From IMG/VR virus record IMGVR_UViG_3300046533_000211, positions 33,220 to 97,219 of that record: a stretch of 64,000 nt of DNA; one strand, written 5' to 3'. This stretch comes from a virus. Lineage: Duplodnaviria > Heunggongvirae > Uroviricota > Caudoviricetes. This document shows, piece after piece, positions 10,175 through 62,553 of this stretch (within the stretch, counting starts at the first letter, position 1; every line of letters starts with the position of its first letter). The notes under the pieces were generated by a model. The model did no database searches. It had not been told where the DNA came from and worked only from the letters and a program-made list of their open reading frames with translations. Position numbers and translations under genes: made by a program.

Positions 10175-10353
10175 TCGCAGCAGCAGCCCCAGGCGTGGTA
10201 GATGTTCTCGTCGGTGTCCTCCACCCGTACCCCGTTGTGCTGGCCCTTGTGGCCCTTGAACCGGGTGCAGATGTGACGGAACGCGGAGATCTCAGCACAC
10301 AGCCCACCGTCCTTGGCGTACTGGACAGTCTCCTCGAAGGTCAGCCTGGCCAT
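10171..10353 (-). CDS. small Cys-rich protein (60 aa; ends GCCCD)
   Basis: Terminal gene of leftward late operon. Confidence 0.5.
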   Translation of the reverse strand: MARLTFEETVQYAKDGGLCAEISAFRHICTRFKGHKGQHNGVRVEDTDENIYHAWGCCCD

Positions 10354-11445: not shown

Positions 11446-11454
11446 GGCGACCTC

Positions 11455-35614: not shown

Positions 35615-36274
35615 TCACGCAGCAACGCCAGTCGCGGTGACCTTGGCACCCTTGCGGGTCAGCACGGTGGTCGACGTGGTGATGCCGTCGTTCCAGTACT
35701 GATAGCCGTGGTTGTTGTCGTTGTCGGGCAACGGCTTGAGAGTCATGTCGTAGAGCGTCAGCTCCTTGTGGGTCCACTTCATCGGACCGACGAGGGTGAT
35801 GCGGGCGTAGGGCAGGACCAGGCGCATGTTGATCTTGCCGTAGAAACCGTCGAACACCCAGACGCCAGTGTCGAGGAGCTGCTGGTTGAGCTTGGCAGCG
35901 ATCTCGGTGCCGGTGCTCGCGGTGGCCGGGGTGACCTCCACGTTGGCGGCTCCATGAGCGGCACGCTGGACATCGGCGTTCATCGCCTGCAGGAGCTTGA
36001 ACTTGATCGTGAGTCCGTACTTGTCCTGCAAGACGGCGACCAGGTTCCCACCCCAGTCCTGGATCTCGACGTTGCCGCGCTCCTCGGTGCGGTCCACACC
36101 ATCAGCACTCACGCGGCCCAGTGCGATGAAGGAGGGATCGAGCGGGTCGTTGGCACTCGCGGGAAGTGTCACCGCGAGGTCGGGGCTGAACAGCACGCCA
36201 CCGGTTACCCGTGGCGAGGGTGCCGCCAGCTCCGCGACTTGCGCGATGATGACGGGCGGGGCCGGTGTGGTCAT
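35615..36274 (-). CDS. major tail protein
   Basis: 219 aa, position upstream of chaperones. Confidence 0.7.
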   Translation of the reverse strand: MTTPAPPVIIAQVAELAAPSPRVTGGVLFSPDLAVTLPASANDPLDPSFIALGRVSADGVDRTEERGNVEIQDWGGNLVAVLQDKYGLTIKFKLLQAMNADVQRAAHGAANVEVTPATASTGTEIAAKLNQQLLDTGVWVFDGFYGKINMRLVLPYARITLVGPMKWTHKELTLYDMTLKPLPDNDNNHGYQYWNDGITTSTTVLTRKGAKVTATGVAA

Positions 36275-39113: not shown

Positions 39114-40556
39114 TCACCAGACTGGAGCCGTCAGACCGGTGACCTTGACCACCGACTGCGGGTACCGGGCTGCGCTGAACGCGAGGTAGTTGTAGATCTG
39201 CAGGATGACCGTGAGCGTCTGAGCCTTGGTCTCGGGCAGCACGCGGGCGCGGATGCCACCCTCCCACAGCACGATGTCGCTGGACCGCAGGACCAGAACC
39301 GGGTCCTCCGTTCCGGCTCCAGCAGTGACGGGCAGGTTGGGATCGGTCACGACCGGCAGCCCCTGGATGTTGCCGACCACCTGTTGGGACGCCACATCGC
39401 TGACCACACCGGCCACGTTCATGGGTCCGTTCGCGGTGCCCAGCACCAGCGGGCGCTGTTGGGTGTCGAGCAGGCTGGTGAACCAGCCCCACCGACGCGG
39501 GTGCATCACGATCACGTCAGGCGGCAGGAACCGCGTCACGTGAACGGTCTGGATCGCGTTGGCGATGGCCGAGTAGAAGCCCTTGATGTCGACCGTCGCA
39601 GCTGCCACGCTGCCGATTCCCGGCGTCGCGAGGATGCCGAGGATCTGTCCCGTGAGGCCGGTGCCACCGATGACCTGGTTGTCGGTCTTGGCGGCATGGT
39701 CGGCAGTGAGGTCACGGAACACCACATCATCGAACGCGATGGGTGACTGGTCGATCAGCTGGATCGCAAGCGACTGCTGACCGGCGATGGTCCGCACCGG
39801 GGCGTTGATGAAGGTGTCCGTCAGATCCACCTGCGACACGGCCTGGTTGTCGGCGGTCTGGACGCCGACTGCCGTGCCCGTGAGCAGCTTCGGGATGTTG
39901 ATGGAGTCCGTGCCACCCGGCAGCGGCTGGCGCTGCACCAGGTTGGCCAGAGCACGGCCCGGACGGGCCAGCTCCACGTACTGGGACATCAGCCACGCGG
40001 GCGGTACCGCGTAGCCACCGGAGCCGTCGACCCTGCTCAGGTCACGGAACTCCTTGTAGTCGTCGCTGGTGGCGACATCCTGTGCGTGCCGGAACAGCCG
40101 GTCGCGGGCGGTGCCATCCTGGTCCAGGTTCATCGAGTGCTTGATGAGGTCCTGCATGTAGGAACGACGCGGGTCGCCCTTCTGATAGATGGCCTTCTCC
40201 TTGACGCGGGCAATCGCACCCTCGGCAGAGCGGATGCGGGCCAGCGAGTTGCTGATCTGGCCGCTGCGCTCTACCTCGGCACGGACCTCCTCGATCCGCT
40301 CTTCGAGGCCCTTGATCTCGTCACCGATCTTCGCCATGTCGGCGGTGTAGCGACGGAACTCGGTGTCCTCCTCGGACTCCAGGGTGTCCCGGCCAGCGCC
40401 GCGCGCCTCCATGAGCACGGCCTCGGCCTTGCCCTTGAGTTCGTCACGGTCACGTACCAGCTTGGTGTGCCGCTTGAGCAGCCGACCAAGGTACTCATCC
40501 ATCCCACCGGCAGGCTCCATCTGGACGCCGGGTGGGCTTTCGTCGATAGTTGTCAT
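39114..40556 (-). CDS. major capsid protein (HK97 fold) with N-terminal coiled-coil delta/scaffold-like domain
   Basis: 480 aa from ATG at 40556 (MTTIDES...); about 110-aa charged coiled-coil N-terminus then capsid-like body. Confidence 0.75.
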   Translation of the reverse strand: MTTIDESPPGVQMEPAGGMDEYLGRLLKRHTKLVRDRDELKGKAEAVLMEARGAGRDTLESEEDTEFRRYTADMAKIGDEIKGLEERIEEVRAEVERSGQISNSLARIRSAEGAIARVKEKAIYQKGDPRRSYMQDLIKHSMNLDQDGTARDRLFRHAQDVATSDDYKEFRDLSRVDGSGGYAVPPAWLMSQYVELARPGRALANLVQRQPLPGGTDSINIPKLLTGTAVGVQTADNQAVSQVDLTDTFINAPVRTIAGQQSLAIQLIDQSPIAFDDVVFRDLTADHAAKTDNQVIGGTGLTGQILGILATPGIGSVAAATVDIKGFYSAIANAIQTVHVTRFLPPDVIVMHPRRWGWFTSLLDTQQRPLVLGTANGPMNVAGVVSDVASQQVVGNIQGLPVVTDPNLPVTAGAGTEDPVLVLRSSDIVLWEGGIRARVLPETKAQTLTVILQIYNYLAFSAARYPQSVVKVTGLTAPVW

Positions 40557-40739: not shown

Positions 40740-41429
40740 ATGGTGATTCGGCAGTACGTGGACAAGCTGGAGGGCGACGACTTCCTGCATGCCCAGGCGA
40801 TGGCATGGCGCGACATCCGCGAGTTCATGGAGGAGGACATCATGCCGCTGGTTGCTCAGGCACCAGGCGGCTCTGTGAACGGGCCAGGGTCCAGCCTGGG
40901 TTGCACGGAACCTGTCGTCGCACAGCTGCCCGCACTGCTGCATCGCTACGACGTGAAGACGATGCTCGACGTGGGCTGTGGTGACTGGACCTGGATGCGC
41001 CACGTGGACCTGACCGGGATCGACTACACCGGATGGGACGTGGACATCACCCAGGTCAGTCGTAACCGGAGCAAGTTCCCCGCACACCGGTTCGACTCCG
41101 AGAACATCCTGACCGTGGAGGACATGCCGCGCTACGACGTGATCCTCTGCCGCGATGTGCTGGCTCACCTGCCCACCGAGCACATCCTGGCCGCACTGGC
41201 GAAGTTCAAGGCCAGCGGCTGCCGCTACCTGCTGGCGAGCACCTACCCAGGAGCCGACAACGCCTTCGACTACCGGCCCGAGCACTATGCCTGGCTCGGC
41301 TACTGCGAGCACCCGGTGGACCTCCAGGAACGCCCGTTCGCACTGGCCGAGATCGAGTGCATCGAGGAGACACCTGGACCAGGGGGCGTGATCGCACTCC
41401 CGCACGAACTCGGGCTGTTCCGGCTATGA
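40740..41429 (+). CDS. class I SAM-dependent methyltransferase
   Basis: LDVGCGDW motif I; ATG 40740 within TTG-initiated ORF 40599-41429. Confidence 0.7.
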   Translation: MVIRQYVDKLEGDDFLHAQAMAWRDIREFMEEDIMPLVAQAPGGSVNGPGSSLGCTEPVVAQLPALLHRYDVKTMLDVGCGDWTWMRHVDLTGIDYTGWDVDITQVSRNRSKFPAHRFDSENILTVEDMPRYDVILCRDVLAHLPTEHILAALAKFKASGCRYLLASTYPGADNAFDYRPEHYAWLGYCEHPVDLQERPFALAEIECIEETPGPGGVIALPHELGLFRL

Positions 41430-42340
41430 CCAGCACCGAGCAGCTCGCGAACTTCACGGTGAACTACGGCGCATTCGGCACCCGTGCAGATGCCAACGCC
41501 AACGGCAAGGCCGACGAGGTTCCCCTGCACGGCACGGCAGCCTTCATCGCCCAGCTGGACCGGCCAGCCCAGGCACCGACCTACGTGCCACCGGCAGGGG
41601 TGGACCTGGGCACCGTGGTGGGCTGCATCGACTCGGATGGCCTACTCAAGGACAAGGCAGGCGGCACGGTGGGCCTGCGGCTTCCTGCGAACGACCCGAT
41701 CCTGGCACTGGAGTCGCTCCCGTACCGGGTCAGCTTCAATCTGTTCGACCCCACCGGCAAGCACGTGGACTGGCCCGACACCACCTTCCTCGCCCCCGTG
41801 GATGACTCGCCTGTGGAGCTGAGCACGGCCATGCCCGTGCCTGGAGCCGTGGGTGTGGGCATCACTCGCGGGCAGGATGGCGCTCCCGTAGACGACGTAC
41901 AGCTCGACCCGAACGGCAATCTGGTGTTCTACGTGCAGGGTGTGCCCATCGGCCAGCCCATCGCGATCCCCGCAGGCGCAGGCGGCGGCCTGGTGGGGGC
42001 AGCCATCGAATACAACTACAGCAACGCCATCATCCCCGCCCCGAATGGTAACCAGTTCCGACTCAACAGCCTGGACATGACAGCCGTCACCGAGGGTTAC
42101 TTCCACGTCACCGCCGCCAACGGGTCCGATGTCACCCACGTCCTCGATATGTTCAAGGCGGGCGGTCGGTTCCTGCTCCAGGATCACAACGACAGCAGCA
42201 AGTACGCCGTGTTCGATGTCACCGGGCCGCCCCAGCTCGGCGCAGCCTTCCGCATCCTGCTGCTGGCCTGGGTTGAAGGTCCGGGCAGCTTCAACAACAG
42301 CCAGAAGACGATGATGATCATCGCCAAGTTCAGTGCATGA
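41426..42340 (+). CDS. hypothetical beta-rich protein (304 aa; possible structural/decoration protein)
   Basis: ATGA-coupled to MTase stop. Confidence 0.6.
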   Translation: MTSTEQLANFTVNYGAFGTRADANANGKADEVPLHGTAAFIAQLDRPAQAPTYVPPAGVDLGTVVGCIDSDGLLKDKAGGTVGLRLPANDPILALESLPYRVSFNLFDPTGKHVDWPDTTFLAPVDDSPVELSTAMPVPGAVGVGITRGQDGAPVDDVQLDPNGNLVFYVQGVPIGQPIAIPAGAGGGLVGAAIEYNYSNAIIPAPNGNQFRLNSLDMTAVTEGYFHVTAANGSDVTHVLDMFKAGGRFLLQDHNDSSKYAVFDVTGPPQLGAAFRILLLAWVEGPGSFNNSQKTMMIIAKFSA

Positions 42341-42471
42341 TGGCCGACCGGGACATCGAGCAGATCGCCGACGAGGACATGCGCTGCTCGGACTGCGGGA
42401 CGATCATCCGCTGGCCCCAGGAGCTGACCGTGGGGATCTGCCAGCACTGCCAGCCGTTCCACCAGGAGTGA
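42337..42471 (+). CDS. zinc-ribbon peptide (44 aa, CSDCG...CQHC)
   Basis: ATGATG at 42337 coupled to upstream gene; followed by A-rich gap. Confidence 0.4.
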   Translation: MMADRDIEQIADEDMRCSDCGTIIRWPQELTVGICQHCQPFHQE

Positions 42472-45748: not shown

Positions 45749-46733
45749 GTCCTTCATCTGCAGCCCCGAGCAGCGATCCGGCCTGCTGGTGGCGGTGCTC
45801 AGTGGCCGCAGGCCCCAGCTCGCAGAGCGCCCCACACGCAAGCTCCTGGGCGCACTCAAGGACTTCGGCGCTGCGGACGTGGTGTGGGTGGTGCGGGAGT
45901 CCGATGCCGCTGGCTACGAGCAGGATGAGCACGCGATGGTGGTCTACTCAGACGACTGGTGTGAGGAGTACGCAGCGGCGCACTGGCTCAAGCCAGGACC
46001 ACCTCCCGAGCAGTATCCCCGGCTGTTCTGCGGGCGCGAGGTGGCCAGCCTAGAGGCCGAGAAGCGGGGGTGCTGGGGGGTGCTCCAGCTCGATGACAAC
46101 ATCGTCAAGCTGGTGGTGGCCCGCAACGTCCTGAGCGGGATCGAGGCGGCTCGGATCAACGGCGGGATGGCCCTGTTCGCGGACCTGCTCGCCGCTGTCA
46201 CGCTGTCCACCAACGGCAGGTTCGTGGGTGCTGCGCTCACTTCCATACCGTCCTCGAAGATGGTGGTGGCCAGGGCGGGCTTCCCGTACTCGCTGTTCAT
46301 CGAGCAGGTTGGCAAGGGCCGGGAGCACTACTACGGCCCCATCGAGGAGGACATCATCCAGGCCTACCAGTACGGCAACCGGGCTGATGTCTCGGACTCC
46401 ACCGCTCTGCTGGTGCCCTCGATCCGGTACTGCAAGGAGTACACCAGCAAGGGCGGCATGCGTGCTTTCTACGACGGGACCAGAGCCGTCCCGCTGGCCC
46501 GGATGTTCCCTGAGACTGCCAAGGTCACCATCAAGCGCGCCCACTCCAACGGCCAGGGTGGGCCAAGGGTGTTCCACCACATGAGCGCAGGGGCGATCCG
46601 CAATCCGATGATCGTCCACGACCGCGAGCTGTTCGGCAGGGCCAAGCGCAGGGTCGAGCAGCTCCTCATCGAGTGGCGTGCACTCTCGGTGAAATACAAC
46701 CAGGCCAAGATCGACAAGCGGGTCAAGGCATGA
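45729..46733 (+). CDS. hypothetical protein, 334 aa, function unknown (Rossmann-like N-terminus?)
   Basis: Clean ORF overlapping ParB paralog end by 20 nt. Confidence 0.6.
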   Translation: MSGTGAESFICSPEQRSGLLVAVLSGRRPQLAERPTRKLLGALKDFGAADVVWVVRESDAAGYEQDEHAMVVYSDDWCEEYAAAHWLKPGPPPEQYPRLFCGREVASLEAEKRGCWGVLQLDDNIVKLVVARNVLSGIEAARINGGMALFADLLAAVTLSTNGRFVGAALTSIPSSKMVVARAGFPYSLFIEQVGKGREHYYGPIEEDIIQAYQYGNRADVSDSTALLVPSIRYCKEYTSKGGMRAFYDGTRAVPLARMFPETAKVTIKRAHSNGQGGPRVFHHMSAGAIRNPMIVHDRELFGRAKRRVEQLLIEWRALSVKYNQAKIDKRVKA

Positions 46734-47366: not shown

Positions 47367-47732
47367 TCACGGAGCGGTGCGCTCCCCAAGGTCGTGGGCG
47401 AACGCAGGCAGGCCAGGAGCATGCGGGTCGCGGTGCTTCTCACCATCGACCCGGAACCACTCCATCCGCTCATGCTGCTCAATGCCGGGTATGCACTCAT
47501 CCATCAGCCAGTCCAGGAACTGCTCGCGGCTGGTGATGCGCTCGGGCACGGGGAAGATCGGCCCCGCCTCGAAGGTGCCGTCCGGGTTGCAGGCATCCGT
47601 CCCGGTGGCCCAGATGATGACATCCGTACCCACGCCGGGATGGATCAGCCAGCCAGGCCGGTACGTCACACCATGCAGCCAGGCAGCGATGGTCGGTGCG
47701 TCAGGCACGACGCAGGTACGCCAGCCCCTCAT
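47367..47732 (-). CDS. hypothetical protein (about 120 aa)
   Basis: ORF 47367-47786; start choice uncertain, overlaps protease 3' end. Confidence 0.4.
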   Translation of the reverse strand: MRGWRTCVVPDAPTIAAWLHGVTYRPGWLIHPGVGTDVIIWATGTDACNPDGTFEAGPIFPVPERITSREQFLDWLMDECIPGIEQHERMEWFRVDGEKHRDPHAPGLPAFAHDLGERTAP

Positions 47733-49341
47733 TGATGTTGCGGATGTTCGGGATGCCCGTCTTGTCGCGGAACTCCCGCAGCGCACGGTTCACATTGATC
47801 GGACCAGCCCCGAAGGACAGCTCCTCTTCGTGCTCGTCCTCGTCGCTCGGGTTGAGGTTGGCATCGCCGCCCTCGTAGTCGCTCATGGCATCCTTCGCAC
47901 TCGGCGAACGCTTCTTCTTCTCGTCCTTCTTGTCGCCATCCTCAGGCTCGCGGCCACCGCCCTTGGCGAACGGCTTGGCCTTCTCGCCTGGACCGAAGGC
48001 ACGGTCCTCGTTGTCACCGAAGACATCCTCATCGTCCCCATAGGGATCGTTGTAGTCGGACTTCTGCTCCTCCTCGCCCTCGGCCCCTTCGTTGGGGTCC
48101 TCCGGGTCCGGTTCCTGATCGGCCTGGCGCTGTTGGGCAGTGCGTGCACCCTCGGACCACACGTACGGGAACATGCCGCCCAGCCGGGCATCACCAGGCG
48201 TCGGCGAGCTGCCCTGCTGGATCGAGCTGGCTGGCGAGGACGGCAGCGGGGTGCGGGTGCCGTCGTAGAGCACCGCGACCAGCGTTGTCCCACCGTCCAC
48301 ATTGCGGACCATATCGACGTGGCTCACACCGGCCATGATCTTGTCCGTGTCCAGGATGCCGGTCGGCGCGCGCTTGGTCCCAGCAGGCTCGGCACCGCGC
48401 ACCTTGTGGCCGTGCTTGGCCATCGCAGCGGCTGCCCGCTTGCGGATCTGCTCCAGCTGCTGTGGCGTGTAGCCACTCTGCACCTGGCTCAGCGCAGTCC
48501 AGCTGGCCACGACGTGCTTGGCATCGATGGGGAACCTGCGCACACCGTCCCCGTCGCCTGCCTGCTGACGGCTCGCACTCAAGTGGCCGGGGTCGGCGAA
48601 GTGGGTCGCACTCTGGCCCTCGCCATCAGCCGCGCACTCCGGGCACTGGCCGTCCGTGAGGTCACCGTGCTCATGCTCGGCCCGCCAGGCGCGCTGGTCC
48701 ATCAGGGTCGAGACGGCCAGCGTGGCGCGATGCACCAGGTCTGGATCGAGGCGGCGCAGCTCCACCAGCTCGGCCTGGCTCAGTGAGGCCATCGCCTCGA
48801 CACCGTTCTGCAGCACGGCTCGGGTGCCGGGGTTCATCCCGTAGTTGACTACGCTCACGTCGCCCTTGTGCAGGCTGACCTCAGTGATCGTGCGATTCGT
48901 GTAGTTGTCGTCCCACACCTGATCCTTGACCCGGAAGGCGAAGGACATCTCATCGATGTCGCCCCGCTTCATCTTGGGCACCAGCCCCTGGACATCGGGG
49001 TCGGACGGATCCAGGTTGGCCCGGATGAGCAGGCCGTGCTGGTCCACGCCCAGCTTCATCGTGCCGCTCTTGGTCCGCGCCAGCGGCAGCCCCTCATGGT
49101 TCAGCAGGAGCTGTACGTCCGGGTCGGACCGCAGGGTCTGGTCGAATGCCTGGCGGGCCAGCGTCTCCACCCAGCCACCCCGCTCGGGACCACCGAAGGC
49201 GTCGTAGGGGGTGAACGTGGCGGCGTACCCCGTCAGGATGAACTCGCCGGTCGCCTGGTCCTCACGGAACTCGAACCGGGTGGATGCCTTGCGCTCCTCA
49301 CGCACATCGAGAATGCGGGCACGGCTTCGGTGATCGGTCAT
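47701..49341 (-). CDS. capsid maturation (prohead) protease, HK97 family, with long acidic C-terminal extension
   Basis: ATG 49341 with GGAGG RBS; FEFREDQATGEFILTGYAATFTPYDAFGG protease-domain signature. Confidence 0.75.
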   Translation of the reverse strand: MTDHRSRARILDVREERKASTRFEFREDQATGEFILTGYAATFTPYDAFGGPERGGWVETLARQAFDQTLRSDPDVQLLLNHEGLPLARTKSGTMKLGVDQHGLLIRANLDPSDPDVQGLVPKMKRGDIDEMSFAFRVKDQVWDDNYTNRTITEVSLHKGDVSVVNYGMNPGTRAVLQNGVEAMASLSQAELVELRRLDPDLVHRATLAVSTLMDQRAWRAEHEHGDLTDGQCPECAADGEGQSATHFADPGHLSASRQQAGDGDGVRRFPIDAKHVVASWTALSQVQSGYTPQQLEQIRKRAAAAMAKHGHKVRGAEPAGTKRAPTGILDTDKIMAGVSHVDMVRNVDGGTTLVAVLYDGTRTPLPSSPASSIQQGSSPTPGDARLGGMFPYVWSEGARTAQQRQADQEPDPEDPNEGAEGEEEQKSDYNDPYGDDEDVFGDNEDRAFGPGEKAKPFAKGGGREPEDGDKKDEKKKRSPSAKDAMSDYEGGDANLNPSDEDEHEEELSFGAGPINVNRALREFRDKTGIPNIRNINEGLAYLRRA

Positions 49342-49363: not shown

Positions 49364-50728
49364 TTATCCCCGCGCCTTGCCGTTTGGACCGCCCGACACA
49401 CTCGGAGCGGATGTGGATGGGGTGACTTGGGGAGTGGACTCGCCACCGGCCACCGGCTTCCCAGGCACAGCCTTGGTCGGCGTCTTAGGCGGCTCCTCCG
49501 GTCTGGCTGGCTCGGGCGTCTGGGAGATCGGACTCGGCGCGCTCGCAGGTTTGACCAGCATGCCGTAGGGGTCAGGCTGCATCCCGAGCGGGACGAAGTT
49601 CGCAGGCTGCAGTGGCTCGTCGCCGAACTCCAGCGGCTCCATCTCCTCCTGGGCACGCACCTCGTTCGGGGTGATCCAGAAGGCCTTGAGCGCCTTCTCG
49701 TAGGCCTCGAAGCGGGTCTTGATGTCGCCCTTCAGCAACGCGGAGTAGTCGAACTGGACATACTGCCCAGGTGGCAGCATCCTGCTGAAAACAGACTCGA
49801 TGCACGCCGTCCAGGCCCGGAAGGTGTAGGTCACGGCACCGATGGTGATCTGCTCGACACCCGTGCCCCACGCGGTCGTCTCCTTGGTGTCGCCGATCAG
49901 GATGGGCGGCACTCCATACATGATGCAGATCTCGGAGCGCTGGAACTGCCGCGTCTCCAGGAACTGGCTTTCGTTCGGGGCGATGGACAGCGGGGCGAAC
50001 TTGAATCCACCCGTGAGGACAGCGGGCAGCTTGCGGCCACCGTGGGACTGTATCCAGTCCTTCTGCGCGCGGATGACCGCCCTCTCGTCAAGGTCCTGCT
50101 CGGTCGTCAGCATGCCGCTCGGGTTGGCGCTCTCCTTGAAATATCTATAGCCGTACTCCTCTGACGCCAGGCTCATCCCCACCGCGACAGCTGCCTGGTG
50201 GATCGGACTCAGGCCCCATGGCTCACCCGGCATCGTGAAGCGGCGGATGTGGCAGATGTTGCCGCTCGGGATCTGCTCGCCCATCACCCGATAGACCGGA
50301 TCAAACCAGCGCAGGATGTCGGTTCGCCGCTCCAGGAACACCGAATCGGGGTGCAGGGGCATGATCGCGTTCGGCAGCTGGGTCTTGTCGTCATATCCGG
50401 TGATCAGGCCGTAGTAATTGCCCCTCAGGGCCAGCGAGGCCACCATCGACCACTTGTACTGGAACAGATCGAACCCTGGCCACGGCTCCTGGACCAGAGC
50501 AGGCTGAGGGCGCACCTCCTTGGGCACACCCTTGGCGTCGCGGGTGTAAACCTTCCAGGGCAGGCTCGCGATGGTGTCGGCCAGCAGCCGCACGCAGGCA
50601 TAGACGGTCATCACTGACATGGCCCTATGGACACCCACGTAGTCATCCAGCACACCCACCGCAGGCGGCGGCACGAACGAGCTACTGGTCAGCGTGCGCT
50701 GCTCCATCGCCCCGGCACGCGGGGACAT
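49364..50728 (-). CDS. portal protein
   Basis: HK97-type portal-like body; start among 50728/50707/GTG 50812 uncertain. Confidence 0.7.
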   Translation of the reverse strand: MSPRAGAMEQRTLTSSSFVPPPAVGVLDDYVGVHRAMSVMTVYACVRLLADTIASLPWKVYTRDAKGVPKEVRPQPALVQEPWPGFDLFQYKWSMVASLALRGNYYGLITGYDDKTQLPNAIMPLHPDSVFLERRTDILRWFDPVYRVMGEQIPSGNICHIRRFTMPGEPWGLSPIHQAAVAVGMSLASEEYGYRYFKESANPSGMLTTEQDLDERAVIRAQKDWIQSHGGRKLPAVLTGGFKFAPLSIAPNESQFLETRQFQRSEICIMYGVPPILIGDTKETTAWGTGVEQITIGAVTYTFRAWTACIESVFSRMLPPGQYVQFDYSALLKGDIKTRFEAYEKALKAFWITPNEVRAQEEMEPLEFGDEPLQPANFVPLGMQPDPYGMLVKPASAPSPISQTPEPARPEEPPKTPTKAVPGKPVAGGESTPQVTPSTSAPSVSGGPNGKARG

Positions 50729-50745
50729 CAGGCGGGCCAGCACGC

Positions 50746-51168
50746 TCACGGAGTCAAGTCTCGCGGTCGGGTGAACTGATCGCTGGTCGCCACGCCGAGA
50801 ACCACCAGGCACAGACCTGTGACGATCAGGCCCAGCCAGACGTGCACTAGCCAGAATCCCGCCGAGAACAGCAGCAGACCGACGATCTCCAGGAGGGTGG
50901 AGACGATCTCCCGCCTATCCACCCCGGATTCGCTGGGCGGCTCCTGCTCAGGTTGCTGTAGAGGCTCCGTTTGGGGGGTCAACCCGGTTGCTGACGCCTT
51001 CCTGCGGCGTTTGCTCAGTGACACCACACCGGTTGCCGGATCCACCAGCTCGGGGTCGGGATCGAGGCGTGTGTCCGGGTCGAACAGCTCCTCGCCCAGG
51101 CGCTGCATGCCCATCCGCGCACTGATCGGGGCGCTGTCGTCATATGGGTCGAACGTGTCATCGCTCAT
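50746..51168 (-). CDS. hypothetical protein with C-terminal TM segment
   Basis: 140-aa ORF between TerL and portal. Confidence 0.55.
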   Translation of the reverse strand: MSDDTFDPYDDSAPISARMGMQRLGEELFDPDTRLDPDPELVDPATGVVSLSKRRRKASATGLTPQTEPLQQPEQEPPSESGVDRREIVSTLLEIVGLLLFSAGFWLVHVWLGLIVTGLCLVVLGVATSDQFTRPRDLTP

Positions 51169-52780
51169 GGATGGGGATCACCTCAGCCTCTGCTCCGTCC
51201 TTCTCCCACTGCTCGATCTGCTCCTCCGATGGCCAGGACCAGACCTGTGGCGTGGCCTCGGGCGGGCGACCCTCCAGCCAGACGGCGGCGGCGCAGGCAA
51301 CCAGCGGAGCGATGTCGACAGGTGAGTTCCGTCTATCGAACACCCATGAGTCACCGATCTTGCGCGCCGCGCCGGATGCAGCAGCGCGGTCCAGGATCGG
51401 CTGAGGCCGGTGGTAGATCGTATGGTCACAGATGCCATCGAAGAACAGCGCACAGCCCGCCTGCAGCTCCAGACCAGGCCCCCATTCCACCACTGGGACA
51501 CCCACACGCTTCAGATCACCGATCATCCCGCTCACTGGAGCGCCTGTCTTCTGCACTGCCACGCCCGCGTACGCTTCCTTGCGCTCTGCCAGCCAGCCCA
51601 CCACCCAGTCCGTCCCCCGAGCCGCCTGGATCACTTCGATGTGGAGTGCGCCGTCGTCTCGTCGTGCCGCGATGGCGACGTAGCTTGCTGTGCGGTTGTA
51701 GTTCACGTCCAGCGCGGCGTAGATGACCGATGCCTCTGCCCTCCTGCTGTTCACATCCCTGCCGTCCTGCCAGTACTCGGCGGGGATGACCCCCGGCTCC
51801 AGGGCGTCCACCGTCTGGCACAGGTACTCCGTTTGCCAGCCCGGCATGTTCTTGTATTGCATCGTTTCGAGGCGACCGTGCAGGTCCTCGATGGTGAACT
51901 CGTTCAGCCAGCCCACGGCAGGGTTGGCTTGGGGCCAGTGGCGGGGGTCGCGGGGGTCAGCATCCGGTGGAGCACTCCATTCGAAGTAACCAGTCCGGGT
52001 ATCAGCCGTTGTGCCCGTCAATATGCGCCTGGTGGCCGATTGCTGCTGCGAAAGCAGCACCACAGAGCGTGCATCGCCCGCATTCGTGGTGCACACCACC
52101 TGGGAGCACGGTCGGACGGTGCCCGTGGGGGTGATGGCGTCCCAGGCGTCCCAGGTGGTGTGCTCACGTAGCTCGTCCAGCCAGACCACATCCACCGGCA
52201 GGCCACGGCCACCCTTGCGGCTCGCGGTGGCCGCGCGCCAGTAGCGGCGGTTTGTCAGCACGGCGCGGTTCTTGCCGCTGCCCTCCTTGTGGTTGATCAG
52301 CTCGGGGAGGAGTGCCGGGATCGCCCTGATCTCATCGACGGCTTCCTTCAGTGTCGTCTCGGCGTAGTCGAGGTTCTGTGCTGCGATGACGGCCATCTTG
52401 GCACCGGGGTTCGTCCCGCTCACCGCGCCGGTCTTGGAGTAGAACAGCCGCCAGAGGTTCAGCCCTCGGCCCCACTTCGTCTTGCCGTTCTGCCTGGCCA
52501 CCAGGATGACCAGGAACTGGAATCGGAACCCGATTCCGCCCGGTTTCTTCTCCAATGCGTGCCAATACAGCCATATTTGCCAGGGCAGCAGGCTCCAGCG
52601 GCACACCTTCTGCAGGAAGTAGACGCAGGAGTAGCCCCAGGACGTTCGCTTGCTCAGGCCACACCCACACGGGCACTGCACCTCGTCGGGCTTGGCGTCG
52701 CAGTTCTCTGGCAGCGGCGGCGTGAACAGGCGGGGGGTCATGCAGCCGGTGGTCGGCACCGGCTCGGCAACGGAGGTCAC
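51158..52780 (-). CDS. terminase large subunit
   Basis: Walker A VARQNGKT, Walker B VVWLDE, nuclease domain; GTG 52780 (alternative ATG 52741). Confidence 0.8.
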   Translation of the reverse strand: MTSVAEPVPTTGCMTPRLFTPPLPENCDAKPDEVQCPCGCGLSKRTSWGYSCVYFLQKVCRWSLLPWQIWLYWHALEKKPGGIGFRFQFLVILVARQNGKTKWGRGLNLWRLFYSKTGAVSGTNPGAKMAVIAAQNLDYAETTLKEAVDEIRAIPALLPELINHKEGSGKNRAVLTNRRYWRAATASRKGGRGLPVDVVWLDELREHTTWDAWDAITPTGTVRPCSQVVCTTNAGDARSVVLLSQQQSATRRILTGTTADTRTGYFEWSAPPDADPRDPRHWPQANPAVGWLNEFTIEDLHGRLETMQYKNMPGWQTEYLCQTVDALEPGVIPAEYWQDGRDVNSRRAEASVIYAALDVNYNRTASYVAIAARRDDGALHIEVIQAARGTDWVVGWLAERKEAYAGVAVQKTGAPVSGMIGDLKRVGVPVVEWGPGLELQAGCALFFDGICDHTIYHRPQPILDRAAASGAARKIGDSWVFDRRNSPVDIAPLVACAAAVWLEGRPPEATPQVWSWPSEEQIEQWEKDGAEAEVIPIHER

Positions 52781-53038: not shown

Positions 53039-53548
53039 TCACATTCCACCCGCTTCCCGCTGCTGACGGAGGCGATACTTCGTCAGCTCGTCCAGCATCT
53101 GGTATCCGGGGCTGTTCTCATCCATGTCGGCCATCTCCGCATCGGACATGGGTGGCGTGACCATGATGCCGCGCTCCTCGGTGAGGTCGTAGAACCTGGC
53201 TTGCTGCTCCAGCAGCCTGCGGCCCACTTCGATGGCCTTGAGGTCACCGTCCATCACCTTCGACCAGGCGCGGCTGATCAGCATCTCCAGCCGCTCCACG
53301 TAGATGGTCTTCGCCTGGTCAGCGAGCAGCTCCTGGCGCTTGGCCGCACCGAGCAGCTCAGCCTTGATGATGTCGTGCACCCATGGCGAGGTGAGCATGA
53401 CCTTCGGGTGCGCGGCGATCCACCGCTCCGTGCGGCCAGCCAGGAAGGCCTGGAAGATGAAGGCGTTGCGCTCCTGGCGCTGCTCAGCGGTCACCCTGGC
53501 CGATCTCCTGTCCAGATTGCCGTCTACCCGTCGCCTCTTGCCCGCCAT
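53039..53548 (-). CDS. terminase small subunit (putative)
   Basis: 169 aa immediately upstream of TerL. Confidence 0.55.
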   Translation of the reverse strand: MAGKRRRVDGNLDRRSARVTAEQRQERNAFIFQAFLAGRTERWIAAHPKVMLTSPWVHDIIKAELLGAAKRQELLADQAKTIYVERLEMLISRAWSKVMDGDLKAIEVGRRLLEQQARFYDLTEERGIMVTPPMSDAEMADMDENSPGYQMLDELTKYRLRQQREAGGM

Positions 53549-53558
53549 CGGGCAAGTA

Positions 53559-54956
53559 TCAGCCCCAATTGAGTGGGTCGTCGGGATTATCAGCGGCGCG
53601 GCGTGCCAGCACGGCCCTCATCAGCCAGGGGCGGCCCTGCGCCACGCGGTAGATCTGGAACAGCTCCCGATTGCGTTCGACATCACGGGTCCACCCTCGC
53701 GAGTCGGCCTTGGCCCCCACGTAGGTGTCGTGGACCGAGCCGGTGGAGTGCTTCGGCTTCTGGTTGTGCTCGAACGAGTAGACGCTGCCCTCCAGCCTCT
53801 TGACCCGCGACAGCGTGCCGACGATGGAGGTGAACGAGGTGTCCTCCCAGCCCCACCCGATGAACTCTGGCGGCTGCCCACCGAGCCGCCAGTACTCCTT
53901 GCGGGTGGCCACCAGGCAGCCACCCACCCCGGCCACGCCGTCACCGTCCCAGGTGTTGATGAACGGCACGCTGGCCAGCTCAGACAGCGGCGTATCCAGG
54001 TATTTCGGGTCGAGAATCCGGTATTTCGTGAACGGCCAGCAGACACCCACCGGTTCGGCCACCGCCCGCAGCACATTCAACGGATCGACCAGGGTGTCGG
54101 CATCGGAGATCACCACCACGTCAGTCTCAGCCTGGCGCACCGCGTTGTTGCGGGCCTGGGCCAGGCTGAACACCTTGGTGTCGGAGTCGGCGGTGATGAC
54201 AGGCCAGCCGAACATCGCCCAGTACTCCTGCACGCGCTTGAACGCTGCGAGCCTGGAGCGGGAAGGACGCCACGGAATGCACACCGTGGCCCGCAGCCGG
54301 GGCTGCAGCTTGGGCATGAGCAGCGCAGGCTGGACCACGTCGAGCGGATGTCTAATTTCCAATTTCGCAATTCGCAATCGGCGCGCGGTGCTGGGCTTGG
54401 CGAACAGGATGATGTTCTGGCGATACCACCATTCGACCCGTTGATCCCACCAGATGCGCTGTCGCACAACATCATACGGCTGAAAACCGTGCTCAGCGAA
54501 CAGTCTGGCCCAGTAGCTGGGCCAGTGCAGGTTGATGTGCCCCGTCCCGTCCTGACCCGGTGGGGCTGCCGAGAAGGCCACGACGCTCCCATGGCGGCAC
54601 AGCGATTCGACCAGGGTGCGGCTCGCCCTCTGCGGCAGGTGCTCGGCCACCTCCAGGCACAGCACCAGGTCGGCCTTGCGGCCCAGGCGTAGCGGCTCCG
54701 TCAGGTCATGGGCGCGGAACAGCGGTCGCACCGGGTCGGGCAGCAGCTCCCTCACCCACTCACCGTCGACACCGGCCAGCATGGTCACGCCCTCATCGAG
54801 GTGCGCCCAGGCGCGCAGCCAGGTGCCCACGCCACAGCCCACATCGATCACCGTCTCCGGGTTGATCAGCTCCTTCAGGATCGGGACGACCACCTGCGCC
54901 GACGACAGTGACCCATCGGCCTGCCATGCATAGAACTGCTCGTCGTAAAGGGGCAT
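53559..54956 (-). CDS. bifunctional SAM-dependent methyltransferase (N-term) / family-2 glycosyltransferase (C-term)
   Basis: VIDVGCGVGTW MTase motif I; GT-A-like C-terminal half with VISDADT (DxD) motif. Confidence 0.7.
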   Translation of the reverse strand: MPLYDEQFYAWQADGSLSSAQVVVPILKELINPETVIDVGCGVGTWLRAWAHLDEGVTMLAGVDGEWVRELLPDPVRPLFRAHDLTEPLRLGRKADLVLCLEVAEHLPQRASRTLVESLCRHGSVVAFSAAPPGQDGTGHINLHWPSYWARLFAEHGFQPYDVVRQRIWWDQRVEWWYRQNIILFAKPSTARRLRIAKLEIRHPLDVVQPALLMPKLQPRLRATVCIPWRPSRSRLAAFKRVQEYWAMFGWPVITADSDTKVFSLAQARNNAVRQAETDVVVISDADTLVDPLNVLRAVAEPVGVCWPFTKYRILDPKYLDTPLSELASVPFINTWDGDGVAGVGGCLVATRKEYWRLGGQPPEFIGWGWEDTSFTSIVGTLSRVKRLEGSVYSFEHNQKPKHSTGSVHDTYVGAKADSRGWTRDVERNRELFQIYRVAQGRPWLMRAVLARRAADNPDDPLNWG

Positions 54957-55718: not shown

Positions 55719-55915
55719 CCAGGTGAGCGTCCAGCGTCCAGAAGCCGCGAAGAGCAAACAAGCCGAGATTGATGCCGCCCGCTGTCTGCTTGAACGGCAC
55801 GGCTACACCGTTTTGCTAGTGCCACCAGGTGCATTGCCGGGTTGGTTGAGGCCGTGGTGGCTGAGATGACTGACCCTGATCCCACCGTGGACAGATCTTC
55901 CCGATGCGGCATGGG

Positions 55916-56137
55916 ATGACCACAGACGCCATCGCACGGTTCGTGCTCGACCGCAGGGAGGACATCTCGGGCATCTCTGGCACTGGAGTCGTGGCCGAGG
56001 GTGTGATGTTCAGCGACGGCACCTCCGTGCTGCGCTGGGTGGTGGGCAAGCGGTCCACTGCGGTCTACGACTGCATGGAGGATCTCGTCGCCATCCACGG
56101 GCACCACGGGGCAACCCAGGTCCGCTGGCTGGACTAG
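55916..56137 (+). CDS. hypothetical protein (about 73 aa)
   Basis: ORF 55904-56137, ATG 55916. Confidence 0.5.
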   Translation: MTTDAIARFVLDRREDISGISGTGVVAEGVMFSDGTSVLRWVVGKRSTAVYDCMEDLVAIHGHHGATQVRWLD

Positions 56138-60841: not shown

Positions 60842-61069
60842 TCACTCCACCCACTCCACCTGATTGCAGGCAATGGCCAGATTCATCGCCATGACGGCGC
60901 GGCGCAGCTCACGGTGCGCTGCCGTGGTGTCAGCACAGGGTGGCGCGCACTCGTTGAACAGCTCGGCCAGCTCACGCGCCTTGGCGCGGATCGCCTGGTA
61001 CGCCGTGATCTGCTCCTCTGTCGGTGCGTGGTAGGCGTACCAATTGTCCAACTCGGCCTGATCAGCCAT
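60842..61069 (-). CDS. hypothetical protein (75 aa)
   Basis: ATG 61069 with AGGAAACGGAA RBS. Confidence 0.5.
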   Translation of the reverse strand: MADQAELDNWYAYHAPTEEQITAYQAIRAKARELAELFNECAPPCADTTAAHRELRRAVMAMNLAIACNQVEWVE

Positions 61070-61605: not shown

Positions 61606-62553
61606 TCACTTCGGGGGGATCGGGATCTGGATCAGTGGGTTGCCACCCGATCCGATCTGGCCCCAGCATCCGGCTGGGTCCTTGCCGTTGTCGACCATTT
61701 TGTTGATGCAGTTGAAGATCGCCACCCGCAGATCCGGTGGTGCCTGCATCGCACGCTGCTCACTGGCCAGCCTGTTCTGGGTGGCGGTCTGCACGTCCTG
61801 CTGGGCGTTGCGCGTCTCCTGGACCTTCTGGTTGAACTGATCGATCCGCTGCTGGGTGGGGTCGTCGTAGAAGATCCCCGGAATCCTCACATCGATCACG
61901 ATGATCTCGCTGCCCACTGCGGCCTGGAGGTCGGCCTTGACCTGCGCTGCGATCCCCGGCAGGTCTGCGCCCTGGTTCTGGGCCGGGACGGTGGTGGGCT
62001 GGGTCGGGTCCACCACGGCAGCTGTCACCTGTGGGTTGAACACCGCGAAGTGCTTGCTCAGTGCGACCTGGAGCTGCTTGTCGACCAGGTTCTGCCTGAT
62101 GTTCTCGAAGGTCCGGTAGTCCTGGAACATCTGACCAGCGGCGTCCTCCTTGATCCGCCAGTTCAGGTTGGCCTCGACATAGGCGGTGCTGTTGTTGCCC
62201 AGCCGCACCTTCACCGCATTGCCTGGGCTGCCGAAGTTGTCACCTTGGAAGCTCTGCAGCTGGATCGCCGCGTCCATCTCGCTGACCTTCTGCCAGGGCG
62301 CATGCCACTGGAGACCGGCCCCGGTCTCCCTGGAGGGCCTGCCGTAGGTGGTGATGATGCCGACGTTGCGGGTGCCGACGATGTCGAAGCTGGAGAAGAT
62401 CAGGCAGAGCAGCGCGACGAACCCCAGCACCGCACTGGCCAGCCGAACCACGGGGCGCAGCGAGTGCTCCCCCGGCTGAACCACATAGCTGGCCCCGTAG
62501 ACGATGATCGCGATGATCAGGAATGCGATGGCTGTGATGAACCATCCGGGCAT
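61606..62553 (-). CDS. SPFH/band-7 (stomatin/prohibitin-like) membrane protein
   Basis: N-terminal TM then SPFH-type core, Q-rich coiled-coil tail. Confidence 0.65.
   Translation of the reverse strand: MPGWFITAIAFLIIAIIVYGASYVVQPGEHSLRPVVRLASAVLGFVALLCLIFSSFDIVGTRNVGIITTYGRPSRETGAGLQWHAPWQKVSEMDAAIQLQSFQGDNFGSPGNAVKVRLGNNSTAYVEANLNWRIKEDAAGQMFQDYRTFENIRQNLVDKQLQVALSKHFAVFNPQVTAAVVDPTQPTTVPAQNQGADLPGIAAQVKADLQAAVGSEIIVIDVRIPGIFYDDPTQQRIDQFNQKVQETRNAQQDVQTATQNRLASEQRAMQAPPDLRVAIFNCINKMVDNGKDPAGCWGQIGSGGNPLIQIPIPPK

What the first reader, a model, noticed from the sequence alone, without database searches (positions are those of the whole stretch)
53559..54956. Methyltransferase-glycosyltransferase fusion upstream of the packaging genes, with a second methyltransferase island at 40740-42471 beside the capsid gene
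A single 465-aa ORF joins a class I SAM methyltransferase (VIDVGCGVGTW) to a GT-A-fold family-2 glycosyltransferase with a DxD motif (VISDADT). A separate SAM methyltransferase (LDVGCGDW) and a 304-aa beta-rich unknown sit on a forward-strand island inserted between the major capsid gene and the remaining head genes. Glycosyltransferases inside structural modules of actinophages have been linked to glycosylation of virion proteins. A GT fused to a methyltransferase would imply a methylated glycan or a two-step modification of virion proteins or DNA precursors. I cannot name a well-characterised precedent for this fusion.
Basis: partly seen in the sequence, partly recalled or inferred. Interest (0 to 1): 0.75.

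Follow-up and report, generated by a model that had tools for sequence, protein, structure and literature searches.

The report
Fused methyltransferase–glycosyltransferase in phage head module
An uncultured actinobacterial phage encodes one protein joining a methyl-adding enzyme to a sugar-adding enzyme at the start of its head and packaging genes; it most likely decorates the virus particle with a methylated sugar, which is a fused version of a known phage system and not a new kind of biology.

Summary
Window 53559-54956 (-) is a real 465-aa gene that joins an intact class I SAM methyltransferase (MT) to a GT-A glycosyltransferase (GT) with an invariant DxD, a GWGWED motif and an EHN motif. 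The fusion is not a frameshift artefact: the identical protein is on record from two sources, and 17 relatives (57-83% identity) are also fused.

In 36 of 37 related loci the GT gene directly flanks the head and packaging genes. The second MT (40740-41429) is homologous to MTs inside the capsid- or terminase-adjacent GT cassettes of mycobacteriophages Ariel and prophiGD91-2. Its 304-aa partner is a neck/collar-fibre-type virion protein, not an enzyme.

The best reading is a soluble bifunctional enzyme that glycosylates virion proteins and O-methylates the sugar. The acceptor is inferred, not shown.

Chlorovirus A064R and Geobacillus WsaE are characterised MT-GT fusions, and Corndog has a separate O-MT beside GTs in its head module.

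I rate this a new variant of a known kind, of moderate interest. Side findings:
- repeated decay of the MT domain in relatives
- an intein one residue before the GT's GWGWED motif in some relatives
- a separate ParB + TAGT-like island, a probable DNA-modification cassette

The parts
53559..54956 (-). MT-GT fusion gene, 465 aa, soluble
   Evidence: ORF and translation. Identical protein on record from two sources and 17 fused relatives. AF2 model pLDDT 87.3, pTM 0.88. No TM-like segment, max 19-residue hydropathy 1.05.
54387..54956 (-). N-terminal class I SAM methyltransferase domain (aa 1-190). Its C-terminal subdomain, aa 136-190, is the part retained in degenerate relatives.
   Evidence: Pfam PF13489 above cut-off. 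Foldseek matches to O-methyltransferases and DesVI. 50-78% identity in the MT core among fused relatives.
54819..54851 (-). SAM-binding motif I, V36-IDVGCGVGT-W46
   Evidence: Kept as [VI][LI]D[VI]GCGxGxW in all 18 fused proteins and absent from the 345-386-aa forms.
54291..54386 (-). Conserved junction (aa 191-222), containing LD(L/V)(A/V)QPALLMP(E/K)L
   Evidence: Aligned and partly conserved in fused and degenerate forms and modelled with pLDDT 75-90, so it is not a floppy linker.
53559..54290 (-). C-terminal GT-A glycosyltransferase domain (aa 223-465)
   Evidence: PHROG 1721 E 8e-29. Foldseek PDB: K4CP 2z87 E 5e-9, pp-GalNAc-T10, beta4Gal-T1. BFVD top hit Gordonia phage Syleon galactosyltransferase, TMt 0.87.
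54096..54104 (-). DxD motif D285-A286-D287
   Evidence: Invariant in all 32 aligned sequences.
53841..53858 (-). G367-WGWE-D372 motif, the probable catalytic-base region (the counterpart of the WGGEDDD motif of beta4Gal-T1, from my own knowledge)
   Evidence: G367, W368, G369, E371 and D372 are invariant. Covered by the Pfam Glyco_transf_7C hit at aa 344-376. An intein-like insert lands one residue before it in L036, L037 and L040.
53763..53771 (-). E396-H397-N398, a candidate third metal ligand
   Evidence: Invariant. The metal-ligand role is inferred from GT-A enzymology.
53039..53494 (-). 151-aa gene between the MT-GT and TerL; putative small terminase by position only
   Evidence: Gene call. 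Conserved next to the GT or TerL in nearly all related loci. No Pfam hit; weak phrog_645.
51158..52780 (-). Terminase large subunit
   Evidence: phrog_9 E 1.8e-64.
49364..50749 (-). Portal protein
   Evidence: PF04860 on the gene call.
47701..49341 (-). S78 capsid maturation protease
   Evidence: PF04586.
39114..40556 (-). Major capsid protein (HK97-type, N-terminal delta/scaffold region). C-terminus ...VKVTGLTAPVW is a candidate acceptor.
   Evidence: PF05065 E 1e-17. C-terminal TGLTAP(T/V) is conserved across the lineage.
40740..41429 (+). Second, stand-alone class I SAM methyltransferase (229 aa)
   Evidence: phrog_3382 E 2e-43, PF13489 and PF08242 above cut-off. 46% identical to Ariel gp17 and 43% to prophiGD91-2 gp76, both inside GT cassettes. 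Homologs lie within 10 kb of the GT in many related loci. Only 29% identical to the fused MT.
41426..42340 (+). 304-aa neck/collar-fibre-type virion appendage protein, translationally coupled to the MT (ATGA overlap)
35615..36274 (-). Major tail (tube) protein with a Thr/Ser-rich C-terminal extension GITTSTTVLTRKGAKVTATGVAA; candidate acceptor
   Evidence: 67.5% identical to the L005 gene carrying Phage_TTP_17. The extension is absent from L005.

Best explanation
The 465-aa protein is a soluble, cytoplasmic, bifunctional glycan-tailoring enzyme. It is made as the first product of the phage's head and packaging gene string.

The C-terminal GT-A domain (DxD, GWGWED, EHN; most likely a metal-dependent inverting enzyme) uses a host nucleotide-sugar to add a sugar to a virion protein. 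The most likely sites are Thr/Ser at the C-terminus of the major capsid protein and/or the Thr/Ser-rich C-terminal extension of the tail tube protein.

The N-terminal class I SAM methyltransferase, held against the GT by a conserved junction, then O-methylates that sugar. The stand-alone MT beside the capsid gene probably adds a further methyl group, in the way PBCV-1 A061L follows A064R.

The result would be a methylated sugar coat on the particle.

Shown here: the two intact domains, the reality and conservation of the fusion, solubility, and the tight linkage of the GT gene to head genes.

Inferred: the acceptor, the donor sugar, that the methyl acceptor is the sugar, and the biological benefit (surface masking or stability).
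For: Fusion and domains:
- Domains and motifs are real and conserved.
- The fusion is real: identical protein on record from two sources, and 17 fused relatives including a Mycolicibacterium sphagni assembly.
- There is no TM segment or signal-like region.

Linkage to head genes:
- In 36 of 37 related loci the GT gene directly flanks head genes, in three different placements: upstream of p151-TerL, between protease and capsid, or divergent from p151. The fused form occurs in all three.
- The stand-alone MT's homologs lie in GT cassettes next to the capsid gene (Ariel gp14-21) or the terminase (prophiGD91-2 gp73-80), and co-occur with the GT in many loci.

Literature:
- Phage-encoded GTs O-glycosylate the Che8 capsid (Freeman 2023, as cited; the C-terminal location of the sites is from my own knowledge of that abstract).
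- Characterised MT-GT fusions methylate the sugar they help install: A064R and WsaE.

MT substrate class and candidate acceptors:
- Cellular relatives of the MT half sit with, or are fused to, GT2 enzymes.
- The MT half resembles small-molecule and sugar O/N-methyltransferases.
- The capsid C-terminus carries a conserved TGLTAP(T/V), and the tail tube has a Thr/Ser-rich C-terminal extension.
Against: - There is no direct evidence for any acceptor.
- The GT domain shows no detectable sequence similarity to Che8 or Corndog GTs in the rows I could see. Its annotated relatives are Gordonia phages, cluster C1 myoviruses (gene next to PnuC, not in the head module) and, weakly, cluster J capsid-adjacent GTs.
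- Gene position is circumstantial. DNA-modifying GTs can also neighbour terminase genes.
- The MT domain has been lost or has decayed repeatedly in relatives, so methylation is dispensable for whatever the GT does.
- Only one GT is available, so it must act directly on protein or on a host-made glycan.
- The Pfam GT hits are just below their gathering thresholds.
Confidence: 0.5

Rival explanations
1. The enzyme modifies a host cell-envelope glycoconjugate or a cytoplasmic polymethylated polysaccharide or lipid-linked intermediate, not the virion. The purpose could be to alter receptors (superinfection exclusion) or to reshape the envelope during infection.
For: The MT half is 45-54% identical to many stand-alone bacterial MTs. 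Relatives are fused to, or adjacent to, GT2 enzymes in Mycobacterium kansasii/pseudokansasii and Methylocella genomes. Cluster C1 homologs of the GT are not in the head module. Mycobacteria make many O-methylated sugars (my own knowledge).
Against: The protein has no TM segment or secretion signal. The gene is tied to head and packaging genes in 36 of 37 loci and three placements, implying late co-expression with virion proteins. No flippase, polyprenyl-phosphate GT or transporter gene was seen in the window.
Confidence: 0.17
2. The enzyme takes part in DNA hypermodification. The GT adds a sugar to a hydroxymethylated base (or extends a base-linked sugar) and the MT methylates it, possibly together with the ParB + TAGT-like cassette at 44625-46733.
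For: The same phage carries two ParB_N genes and a TAGT-family GT, a combination typical of phage base-modification neighbourhoods. DNA GTs are often near terminase genes, and some DNA pathways use successive GTs.
Against: ParB/TAGT co-occurs with the GT in only 3 of 37 loci (L001, L008, L014), and the GT is otherwise present without it. No 5mYOX/TET, ThyA-like or DNA MTase gene was found in the window. The top structural matches are K4CP, pp-GalNAc-T and beta4Gal-T1, not the TarP/JGT type reported for DNA GT-A enzymes. Methyltransf_23-type MTs are not DNA MTases.
Confidence: 0.1
3. The methyltransferase half methylates a protein (for example the capsid, or the fibre encoded next to the second MT) rather than a sugar, so the two domains carry out two independent modifications of virion proteins.
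For: Methylation of a mycobacteriophage tail protein (together with HexNAc) has been reported as essential for progeny infectivity, there via a host MT. The island MT is translationally coupled to a fibre-type gene.
Against: The MT-fibre pairing is unique to this phage: no fibre homolog occurs in any related locus, while the MT homologs sit in GT cassettes. Characterised MT-GT fusions methylate sugars. The nearest folds are small-molecule and sugar MTs.
Confidence: 0.13
4. The MT domain is catalytically dead or purely structural in this protein too, and only the GT matters.
For: At least nine relatives have lost motif I but keep the C-terminal MT subdomain at 47-65% identity, which suggests a structural role for that part. 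GT-only forms are common.
Against: In the window's protein and 17 relatives, motif I and the rest of the Rossmann core are intact and 50-78% conserved, which indicates selection for SAM binding.
Confidence: 0.1

Closest known systems
Actinobacteriophage virion-glycosylation cassettes (Che8 GTs; Corndog gp35 O-MT + gp36-38 GTs; Ariel gp14-21; prophiGD91-2 gp73-80)
   Same: These are phage-encoded GT-A-type GTs and class I SAM MTs placed inside or next to the head and packaging module. The island MT is 43-46% identical to Ariel gp17 and prophiGD91-2 gp76. The GT is weakly similar to cluster J capsid-adjacent GTs.
   Different: Here the MT and GT are one polypeptide, and there is only one such GT rather than 3-4. 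There is no detectable similarity to Che8 or Corndog GTs in the rows examined. No record in a 50,697-genome phage collection covers 80% or more of the fused protein. Virion glycosylation is not demonstrated for this lineage.
Chlorovirus PBCV-1 A064R (with A061L)
   Same: A virus-encoded, soluble, multi-domain enzyme combining GT and SAM-MT domains. It builds and 2-O-methylates the terminal sugar of the capsid protein glycan. A second, stand-alone MT adds the next methyl group. The window also has one fusion plus one stand-alone MT.
   Different: A064R has the order GT-GT-MT, is 638 aa, acts on N-linked glycans and comes from a eukaryotic giant virus. Its GT-A domain is GT34-like and retaining. 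Here the order is MT-GT and the motif is of the inverting GT2/GT7/GT27 type. Homology was not tested.
WsaE of Geobacillus stearothermophilus NRS 2004/3a
   Same: An N-terminal MT fused to GT domains. The MT methylates the sugar installed by the GT part, giving the 2-O-methyl-rhamnose cap of a protein-linked (S-layer) glycan. The domain order is the same as here.
   Different: WsaE is bacterial and trifunctional (two GT domains). It acts on a lipid-linked polymer that is exported and then transferred to protein. Homology was not tested.
Uncharacterised bacterial MT-GT2 fusions (e.g. the M. kansasii/pseudokansasii 792-aa protein P0048; the Methylocella 573-aa Methyltransf_21+GT2 protein)
   Same: The MT half is 54% identical to the MT part of P0048, and the domain combination is the same.
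   Different: These proteins carry a different GT domain (PF00535 proper), are larger, have a chromosomal context, and have no known function.

Membership tests
Class I SAM-dependent methyltransferases (Pfam Methyltransf_23 clan) | Profile match above the curated threshold | tested here: met
   PF13489 34.6 bits against a cut-off of 27, aa 26-109.
Class I SAM-dependent methyltransferases (Pfam Methyltransf_23 clan) | Glycine-rich SAM-binding motif I (D/E-x-G-x-G-x-G) after beta-1 | tested here: met
   D38-VGCGVG-44, conserved in all 18 fused proteins.
Class I SAM-dependent methyltransferases (Pfam Methyltransf_23 clan) | Rossmann-like alternating beta/alpha fold | tested here: met
   The AF2 model has alternating strands and helices over aa 35-186, pLDDT mostly above 85. 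Foldseek matches TnmH, DnrK, COMT-type MTs and DesVI at E about 1e-5.
Class I SAM-dependent methyltransferases (Pfam Methyltransf_23 clan) | SAM-dependent methyl transfer, and the identity of the acceptor | not testable with these tools
   Needs a biochemical assay.
GT-A fold glycosyltransferases (GT2/GT7/GT27-like, metal-dependent) | DxD nucleotide-sugar/metal-binding motif | tested here: met
   D285-A-D287 is invariant in 32 sequences.
GT-A fold glycosyltransferases (GT2/GT7/GT27-like, metal-dependent) | GT-A fold | tested here: met
   Foldseek PDB: K4CP 2z87 E 5e-9, pp-GalNAc-T10, beta4Gal-T1, GalNAc-T2. BFVD: Syleon galactosyltransferase E 1e-20, TMt 0.87.
GT-A fold glycosyltransferases (GT2/GT7/GT27-like, metal-dependent) | Pfam family match above the curated threshold | tested here: not met
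   PF10111 22.8 against 27.3; PF00535 22.8 against 23.3; PF02709 21.9 against 23; all are partial hits. PHROG 1721 does match the full domain at E 8e-29. Fold-level membership therefore stands, but assignment to a particular CAZy family does not.
GT-A fold glycosyltransferases (GT2/GT7/GT27-like, metal-dependent) | Catalytic-base motif of the inverting GT7/GT27 type (WGxED) and a C-terminal His metal ligand | tested here: inconclusive
   GWGWED (367-372) and EHN (396-398) are invariant and are covered by the Glyco_transf_7C hit. Their equivalence to the catalytic residues of beta4Gal-T1 is inferred, not superposed.
Actinophage virion O-glycosylation systems (Che8/Corndog/Myrna type) | Phage-encoded GT genes within or beside the virion structural genes | tested here: met
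   36 of 37 related loci, in three placements; the window itself.
Actinophage virion O-glycosylation systems (Che8/Corndog/Myrna type) | Homology to a GT shown experimentally to glycosylate virions | tested here: not met
   tblastn of the GT half gives 257 phage records: Gordonia, cluster C1 and cluster J. No Che8 or Corndog appears in the 60 rows sampled across the ranking. The full list could not be inspected.
Actinophage virion O-glycosylation systems (Che8/Corndog/Myrna type) | Glycans on the capsid and/or tail tube subunits | not testable with these tools
   Only candidate sites were seen: capsid C-terminal TGLTAPVW and the tail tube C-terminal Thr/Ser-rich extension.
Bifunctional MT-GT glycan-tailoring enzymes (A064R, WsaE) | SAM-MT and GT domains in one polypeptide | tested here: met
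Bifunctional MT-GT glycan-tailoring enzymes (A064R, WsaE) | The MT methylates the sugar installed by the GT part | not testable with these tools
   Known for A064R and WsaE from the literature; inferred here.
Bifunctional MT-GT glycan-tailoring enzymes (A064R, WsaE) | Sequence homology to A064R or WsaE | not tested
A064R was not among the top 50 BFVD matches.
Phage DNA base-hypermodification GTs (TAGT/JGT-like, 5mYOX- or ThyS-associated) | Co-occurrence with 5mYOX/TET, ThyS-like, ParB or DNA MTase genes | tested here: not met
   ParB/TAGT lies within 10 kb in only 3 of 37 loci. No TET, ThyA or DNA MTase was found among the window ORFs scanned. About 33 kb of the parent contig lies outside the window and was not examined.
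Phage DNA base-hypermodification GTs (TAGT/JGT-like, 5mYOX- or ThyS-associated) | Structural similarity to TarP/JGT-type GT-A enzymes with R...DDD...EDY/F motifs | tested here: not met
   TarP is not among the top 50 PDB matches. The motifs here are DAD and WED-T.

The most novel reading that the evidence does not exclude
A single phage polypeptide both attaches a sugar to the C-termini of capsid and tail-tube subunits and O-methylates it, and a second phage MT adds another methyl group. The virion would then be coated with mono- or di-O-methyl sugars of the kind mycobacteria display on their own surface and storage glycans. This would be the first methylated glycan described on a tailed-phage particle and a possible case of host-surface mimicry. 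The repeated decay of the MT domain in relatives would then record an on/off arms race over that methyl mark.
Probability: 0.3. Interest if true: 0.6.

Novelty: new variant of a known kind. Interest (0 to 1): 0.4.

Why it matters
Virion glycosylation in mycobacteriophages affects antibody recognition, so it matters for phage therapy. A compact one-gene 'add sugar and methylate it' module would be the simplest such system known, and it would be an easy target for deletion, transplantation or in vitro glyco-engineering of capsids.

The lineage also offers a natural series of intact, degenerate and absent MT domains, plus intein-interrupted GT genes. That series could show which chemical marks on a phage surface are under selection.

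None of this changes the current picture of phage biology. It extends it.

Tried and rejected
- my first neighbourhood survey used a GT-half query cut one base out of frame. Its GT rows are invalid and were replaced.
- Freeman et al. 2023 (the key experimental paper) is not held. I rely on what citing papers say and on my memory of the abstract for the C-terminal location of the glycans.
- The PDB sequence search gives only weak MT hits.
- NCBIfam gives nothing for the fusion.
- The AFDB50 fold library is unavailable.
- Consensus promoter and terminator scans found nothing useful around either locus, as expected for high-GC actinophages.
- The word-indexed homolog search and phage tblastn found nothing for the 304-aa protein. 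Only the exhaustive HMMER search and the structure resolved it.
- The context of its closest relative, P0122, was uninformative because the contig is only 3 kb.
- The family of the host MT MepM could not be established from the paper, so no comparison with the island MT was possible.
- Considered and rejected: a frameshift or assembly chimera (identical protein on record from two sources, and conserved fusion); the antisense 462-aa ORF as a gene (no homologs, wrong codon bias); the 304-aa protein as an enzyme.
Full report
**1. What is there**

Window 53559-54956 (-) is an uninterrupted 465-aa ORF with an ATG start. Its codon bias (GC3 0.85) matches real genes in this 64.8% GC sequence. The overlapping 462-aa ORF on the + strand is a high-GC artefact.

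Pfam finds Methyltransf_23 at aa 26-109, above its gathering score. It finds three partial glycosyltransferase hits (GT2_2, GT2, Glyco_transf_7C) at aa 256-376, just below theirs. PHROGs matches the whole C-half (aa 222-451) to family 1721, 'galactosyl transferase', at E 8e-29.

The surrounding genes on the same strand are a 151-aa gene, TerL, a 140-aa gene, portal and an S78 protease. The capsid gene lies about 7 kb further on, at 39114-40556. The window is a siphovirus-like actinophage with a tape measure, Sipho_Gp37, holin and lysin. It has no near relative among 50,697 deposited phage genomes.

**2. The fusion is real and conserved**

The identical protein is on record from two sources: JGI (longest contig 97,219 bp) and Logan. 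I read it on a Logan contig from run SRR26076634. Seventeen further proteins of 437-486 aa, at 57-83% identity, have the same two-domain layout. One comes from a Mycolicibacterium sphagni assembly.

In an alignment of 32 relatives:
- All 18 fused proteins keep SAM motif I ([VI][LI]D[VI]GCGxGxW).
- All 32 keep D285-A-D287 (DxD), G367-W-G-W-E-D372 and E396-H-N398.

An AlphaFold model built on this alignment is confident (pLDDT 87.3, pTM 0.88), including the junction. Foldseek against the PDB places the C-half with GT-A enzymes of the GT2/GT7/GT27 group: K4CP at E 5e-9, pp-GalNAc-T10, beta4Gal-T1 and GalNAc-T2. It places the N-half with class I O-methyltransferases and the sugar N-methyltransferase DesVI.

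The protein has no TM-like segment.

**3. Where the gene lives in relatives**

I collected 35 viral-contig loci plus contexts from the protein look-ups. I located the window's head, island and DNA-modification proteins in each by tblastn. My first pass used an out-of-frame GT query and is void for the GT rows. One search is the corrected survey.

In 36 of 37 loci the GT homolog is directly beside head genes, in one of three placements:
- (a) immediately upstream of the 151-aa gene and TerL, on the same strand, as in the window and in the M. sphagni contig
- (b) between the S78 protease and the capsid gene
- (c) divergent from the 151-aa gene

The motif-I-bearing fused form is found in all three placements, so it moves as a unit.

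By contrast, the ParB/TAGT cassette (see section 7) accompanies the GT in only three loci. Homologs of the window's stand-alone MT lie within 10 kb of the GT in many loci, including loci with GT-only genes.

**4. The second island**

The 229-aa MT at 40740-41429 (+) hits phrog_3382 at E 2e-43. It is only distantly related to the fused MT (29% identity over the Rossmann core).

Its annotated relatives are telling:
- Ariel gp17 (46%) sits in a GT-GT-kinase-MT...GT cassette directly after the major capsid gene.
- prophiGD91-2 gp76 (43%) sits in a GT-GT-GT-MT-MT-GT cassette just upstream of the terminase.

The 304-aa ORF that overlaps its stop codon (ATGA) has no Pfam hit and no relative in the word-indexed search or in phage genomes. 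An exhaustive HMMER search shows it has two modules. The N-terminal module is shared with the N-termini of many fibre and minor-tail proteins. The C-terminal module is repeated in giant proteins that carry collagen or gp53-like fibre domains.

**5. Most likely mechanism**

The protein is a soluble enzyme made with the head proteins. Its GT-A domain transfers a sugar from a host nucleotide-sugar onto a virion protein, and its MT domain O-methylates that sugar. The stand-alone MT may add a second methyl group.

What is shown: the domains, the fusion, solubility and the linkage to head genes.

What is inferred:
- The acceptor. Candidates are the capsid C-terminus (TGLTAPVW; lineage consensus TGLTAPTF) and the Thr/Ser-rich C-terminal extension of the tail tube.
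- The donor sugar.
- That the methyl acceptor is the sugar. This follows from A064R and WsaE and from the association of MT-half relatives with GT2 enzymes in bacteria.

I put this model at about 0.5.

Rivals:
- A host envelope or polysaccharide target (0.17). Against it: solubility and head-gene linkage.
- DNA hypermodification (0.10). Against it: the lack of co-occurrence with ParB/TAGT/5mYOX, and a fold unlike the TarP/JGT type.
- Protein methylation by the MT (0.13). Prompted by the MepM paper.
- A dead MT domain (0.10).

**6. Comparison with what is known, and novelty**

- PBCV-1 A064R is a GT-GT-MT enzyme that builds and 2-O-methylates the terminal rhamnose of the capsid glycan. The stand-alone MT A061L adds the next methyl.
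- WsaE is an MT-GT-GT enzyme that caps an S-layer glycan with 2-O-methyl-rhamnose.
- Corndog carries an O-MT and three GTs between portal and protease, and its authors proposed methyl and glycan modification of the capsid.
- Che8 GTs glycosylate its capsid.
- BFVD also holds unrelated viral proteins with both domain types.

What is new here:
- The fusion of the two activities in one polypeptide within a tailed-phage head module. No deposited phage genome covers 80% or more of the protein, and no paper on such a fusion was found.
- Its conservation across a metagenomic lineage.
- Its evolutionary dynamics (section 7).

I rate this a new variant of a known kind. Membership in the 'virion glycosylation' group is not established. 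Homology to an experimentally validated GT was sought and not found, and no glycan has been observed.

**7. Other things seen**

(i) MT domain decay. Nine relatives of 345-386 aa have lost motif I but keep the C-terminal MT subdomain (WPSYWAKLF..HGY.PYD..R...WWDQR..WW.RQN) at 47-65% identity. A rough NJ tree without support values places GT-only forms at the base, with degenerate and GT-only forms nested among fused ones. This fits one fusion followed by repeated decay.

(ii) Intein-like insert in the GT. In L036, L037 and L040 the GT gene carries a ~345-aa insert that starts CVDE and ends YFTGN|C/S, placed between F365 and G367. That is one residue before GWGWED. In related loci the TerL and portal genes also carry inteins.

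(iii) ParB + TAGT-like island. A + strand island at 44625-46733 encodes two ParB_N proteins and a 334-aa protein matching Pfam TAGT above threshold. The ParB + TAGT-like pair recurs in Microbacterium and Gordonia phages, where the GT is annotated only as hypothetical. It fits published phage DNA-modification neighbourhoods, although no oxygenase was found in the window.

**8. Verdict**

- The thing is a plausible, compact methyl-glycan tailoring enzyme for virion proteins.
- It is of moderate interest (0.4).
- Virion mass spectrometry would be decisive.

Noticed in passing
window 44625-46733 (+): A second + strand island encodes two paralogous ParB_N proteins (44625-45194 and 45191-45748, 47% identical to each other) followed by a 334-aa protein that matches Pfam PF20691 TAGT (TET-associated glycosyltransferase) above threshold. 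Its QLDDN and EEDI motifs resemble the published DNA GT-A signature. The ParB + TAGT-like pair recurs as an opposite-strand two-gene island in Microbacterium phages Gingerbug, Lesiram and DelaGarza and in Gordonia phage Lilbeanie, where the GT is annotated 'hypothetical'. It is probably a DNA base-modification cassette, but no TET/5mYOX gene was found in the window.
   Followed up: partly
L036 1446-3257; L037 9737-11767; L040 9998-11878: GT homologs of 603-676 aa are interrupted by a ~345-aa intein-like insert (starts CVDE, ends YFTGN followed by C or S), placed between the residues equivalent to F365 and G367. That is one residue before the invariant GWGWED motif. I know of no report of an intein in a phage glycosyltransferase.
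   Followed up: partly
L002 11892-14681 and 14961-17705; L003 9768-12362 and 12762-15182: The TerL and portal genes of related phages carry LAGLIDADG/Hint intein insertions, and tblastn splits them into two pieces.
   Followed up: no
P0019-P0029; L005 8001-9089; L014 GT ORF containing 10328-11002: Relatives of 345-389 aa keep a decayed N-terminal region. SAM motif I is lost, but the C-terminal MT subdomain and the junction are conserved. This is a pseudo-methyltransferase series scattered over the GT tree.
   Followed up: partly
L002 (GCA_025821515.1, JACKSC010000063.1, 169,728 bp): The contig in a Mycolicibacterium sphagni assembly that carries the fused gene looks like a large phage genome, not chromosome: Ro60/TROVE, NAPRTase, phosphoribosyltransferase and Cpn10, then terminase, portal, protease and capsid.
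   Followed up: no
window 60842-61069 (-) and 55904-56137 (+): Small genes are tagged by precomputed Pfam hits as Acb2/Tad1-hairpin-like and Acb5-like (anti-CBASS/anti-Thoeris sponge families). The Acb5-like gene lies about 950 bp upstream of the MT-GT on the opposite strand. An Acb5-like gene also sits upstream of the terminase genes in L005.
   Followed up: no
window 38406-39005 (-): A 199-aa, very acidic, low-complexity protein with a C-terminal HeH/SAP-like DNA-binding motif lies directly downstream of the capsid gene. The HeH part is conserved at the same position in related loci.
   Followed up: no
window 35615-36274 (-): The tail tube protein carries a ~20-residue Thr/Ser-rich C-terminal extension that is absent from its 67.5%-identical homolog in L005. 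L039 has a different Ala/Gly/Ser/Thr-rich extension.
   Followed up: partly
window 11041-14013 (-): The lysis cassette has an r1t-type holin (11041-11445) and an 852-aa lysin that combines a Peptidase_C39-like domain with a weak cutinase-like (LysB-type) region in one ORF.
   Followed up: no
window 61606-62553 (-) and 596-1606 (+): The window also encodes an SPFH/Band_7 protein and a RecT-like annealing protein.
   Followed up: no
window 53304-54692 (+): A 462-aa ORF runs antisense to the MT-GT gene. It is a reminder that long ORFs in this GC-rich sequence are not evidence of genes.
   Followed up: yes
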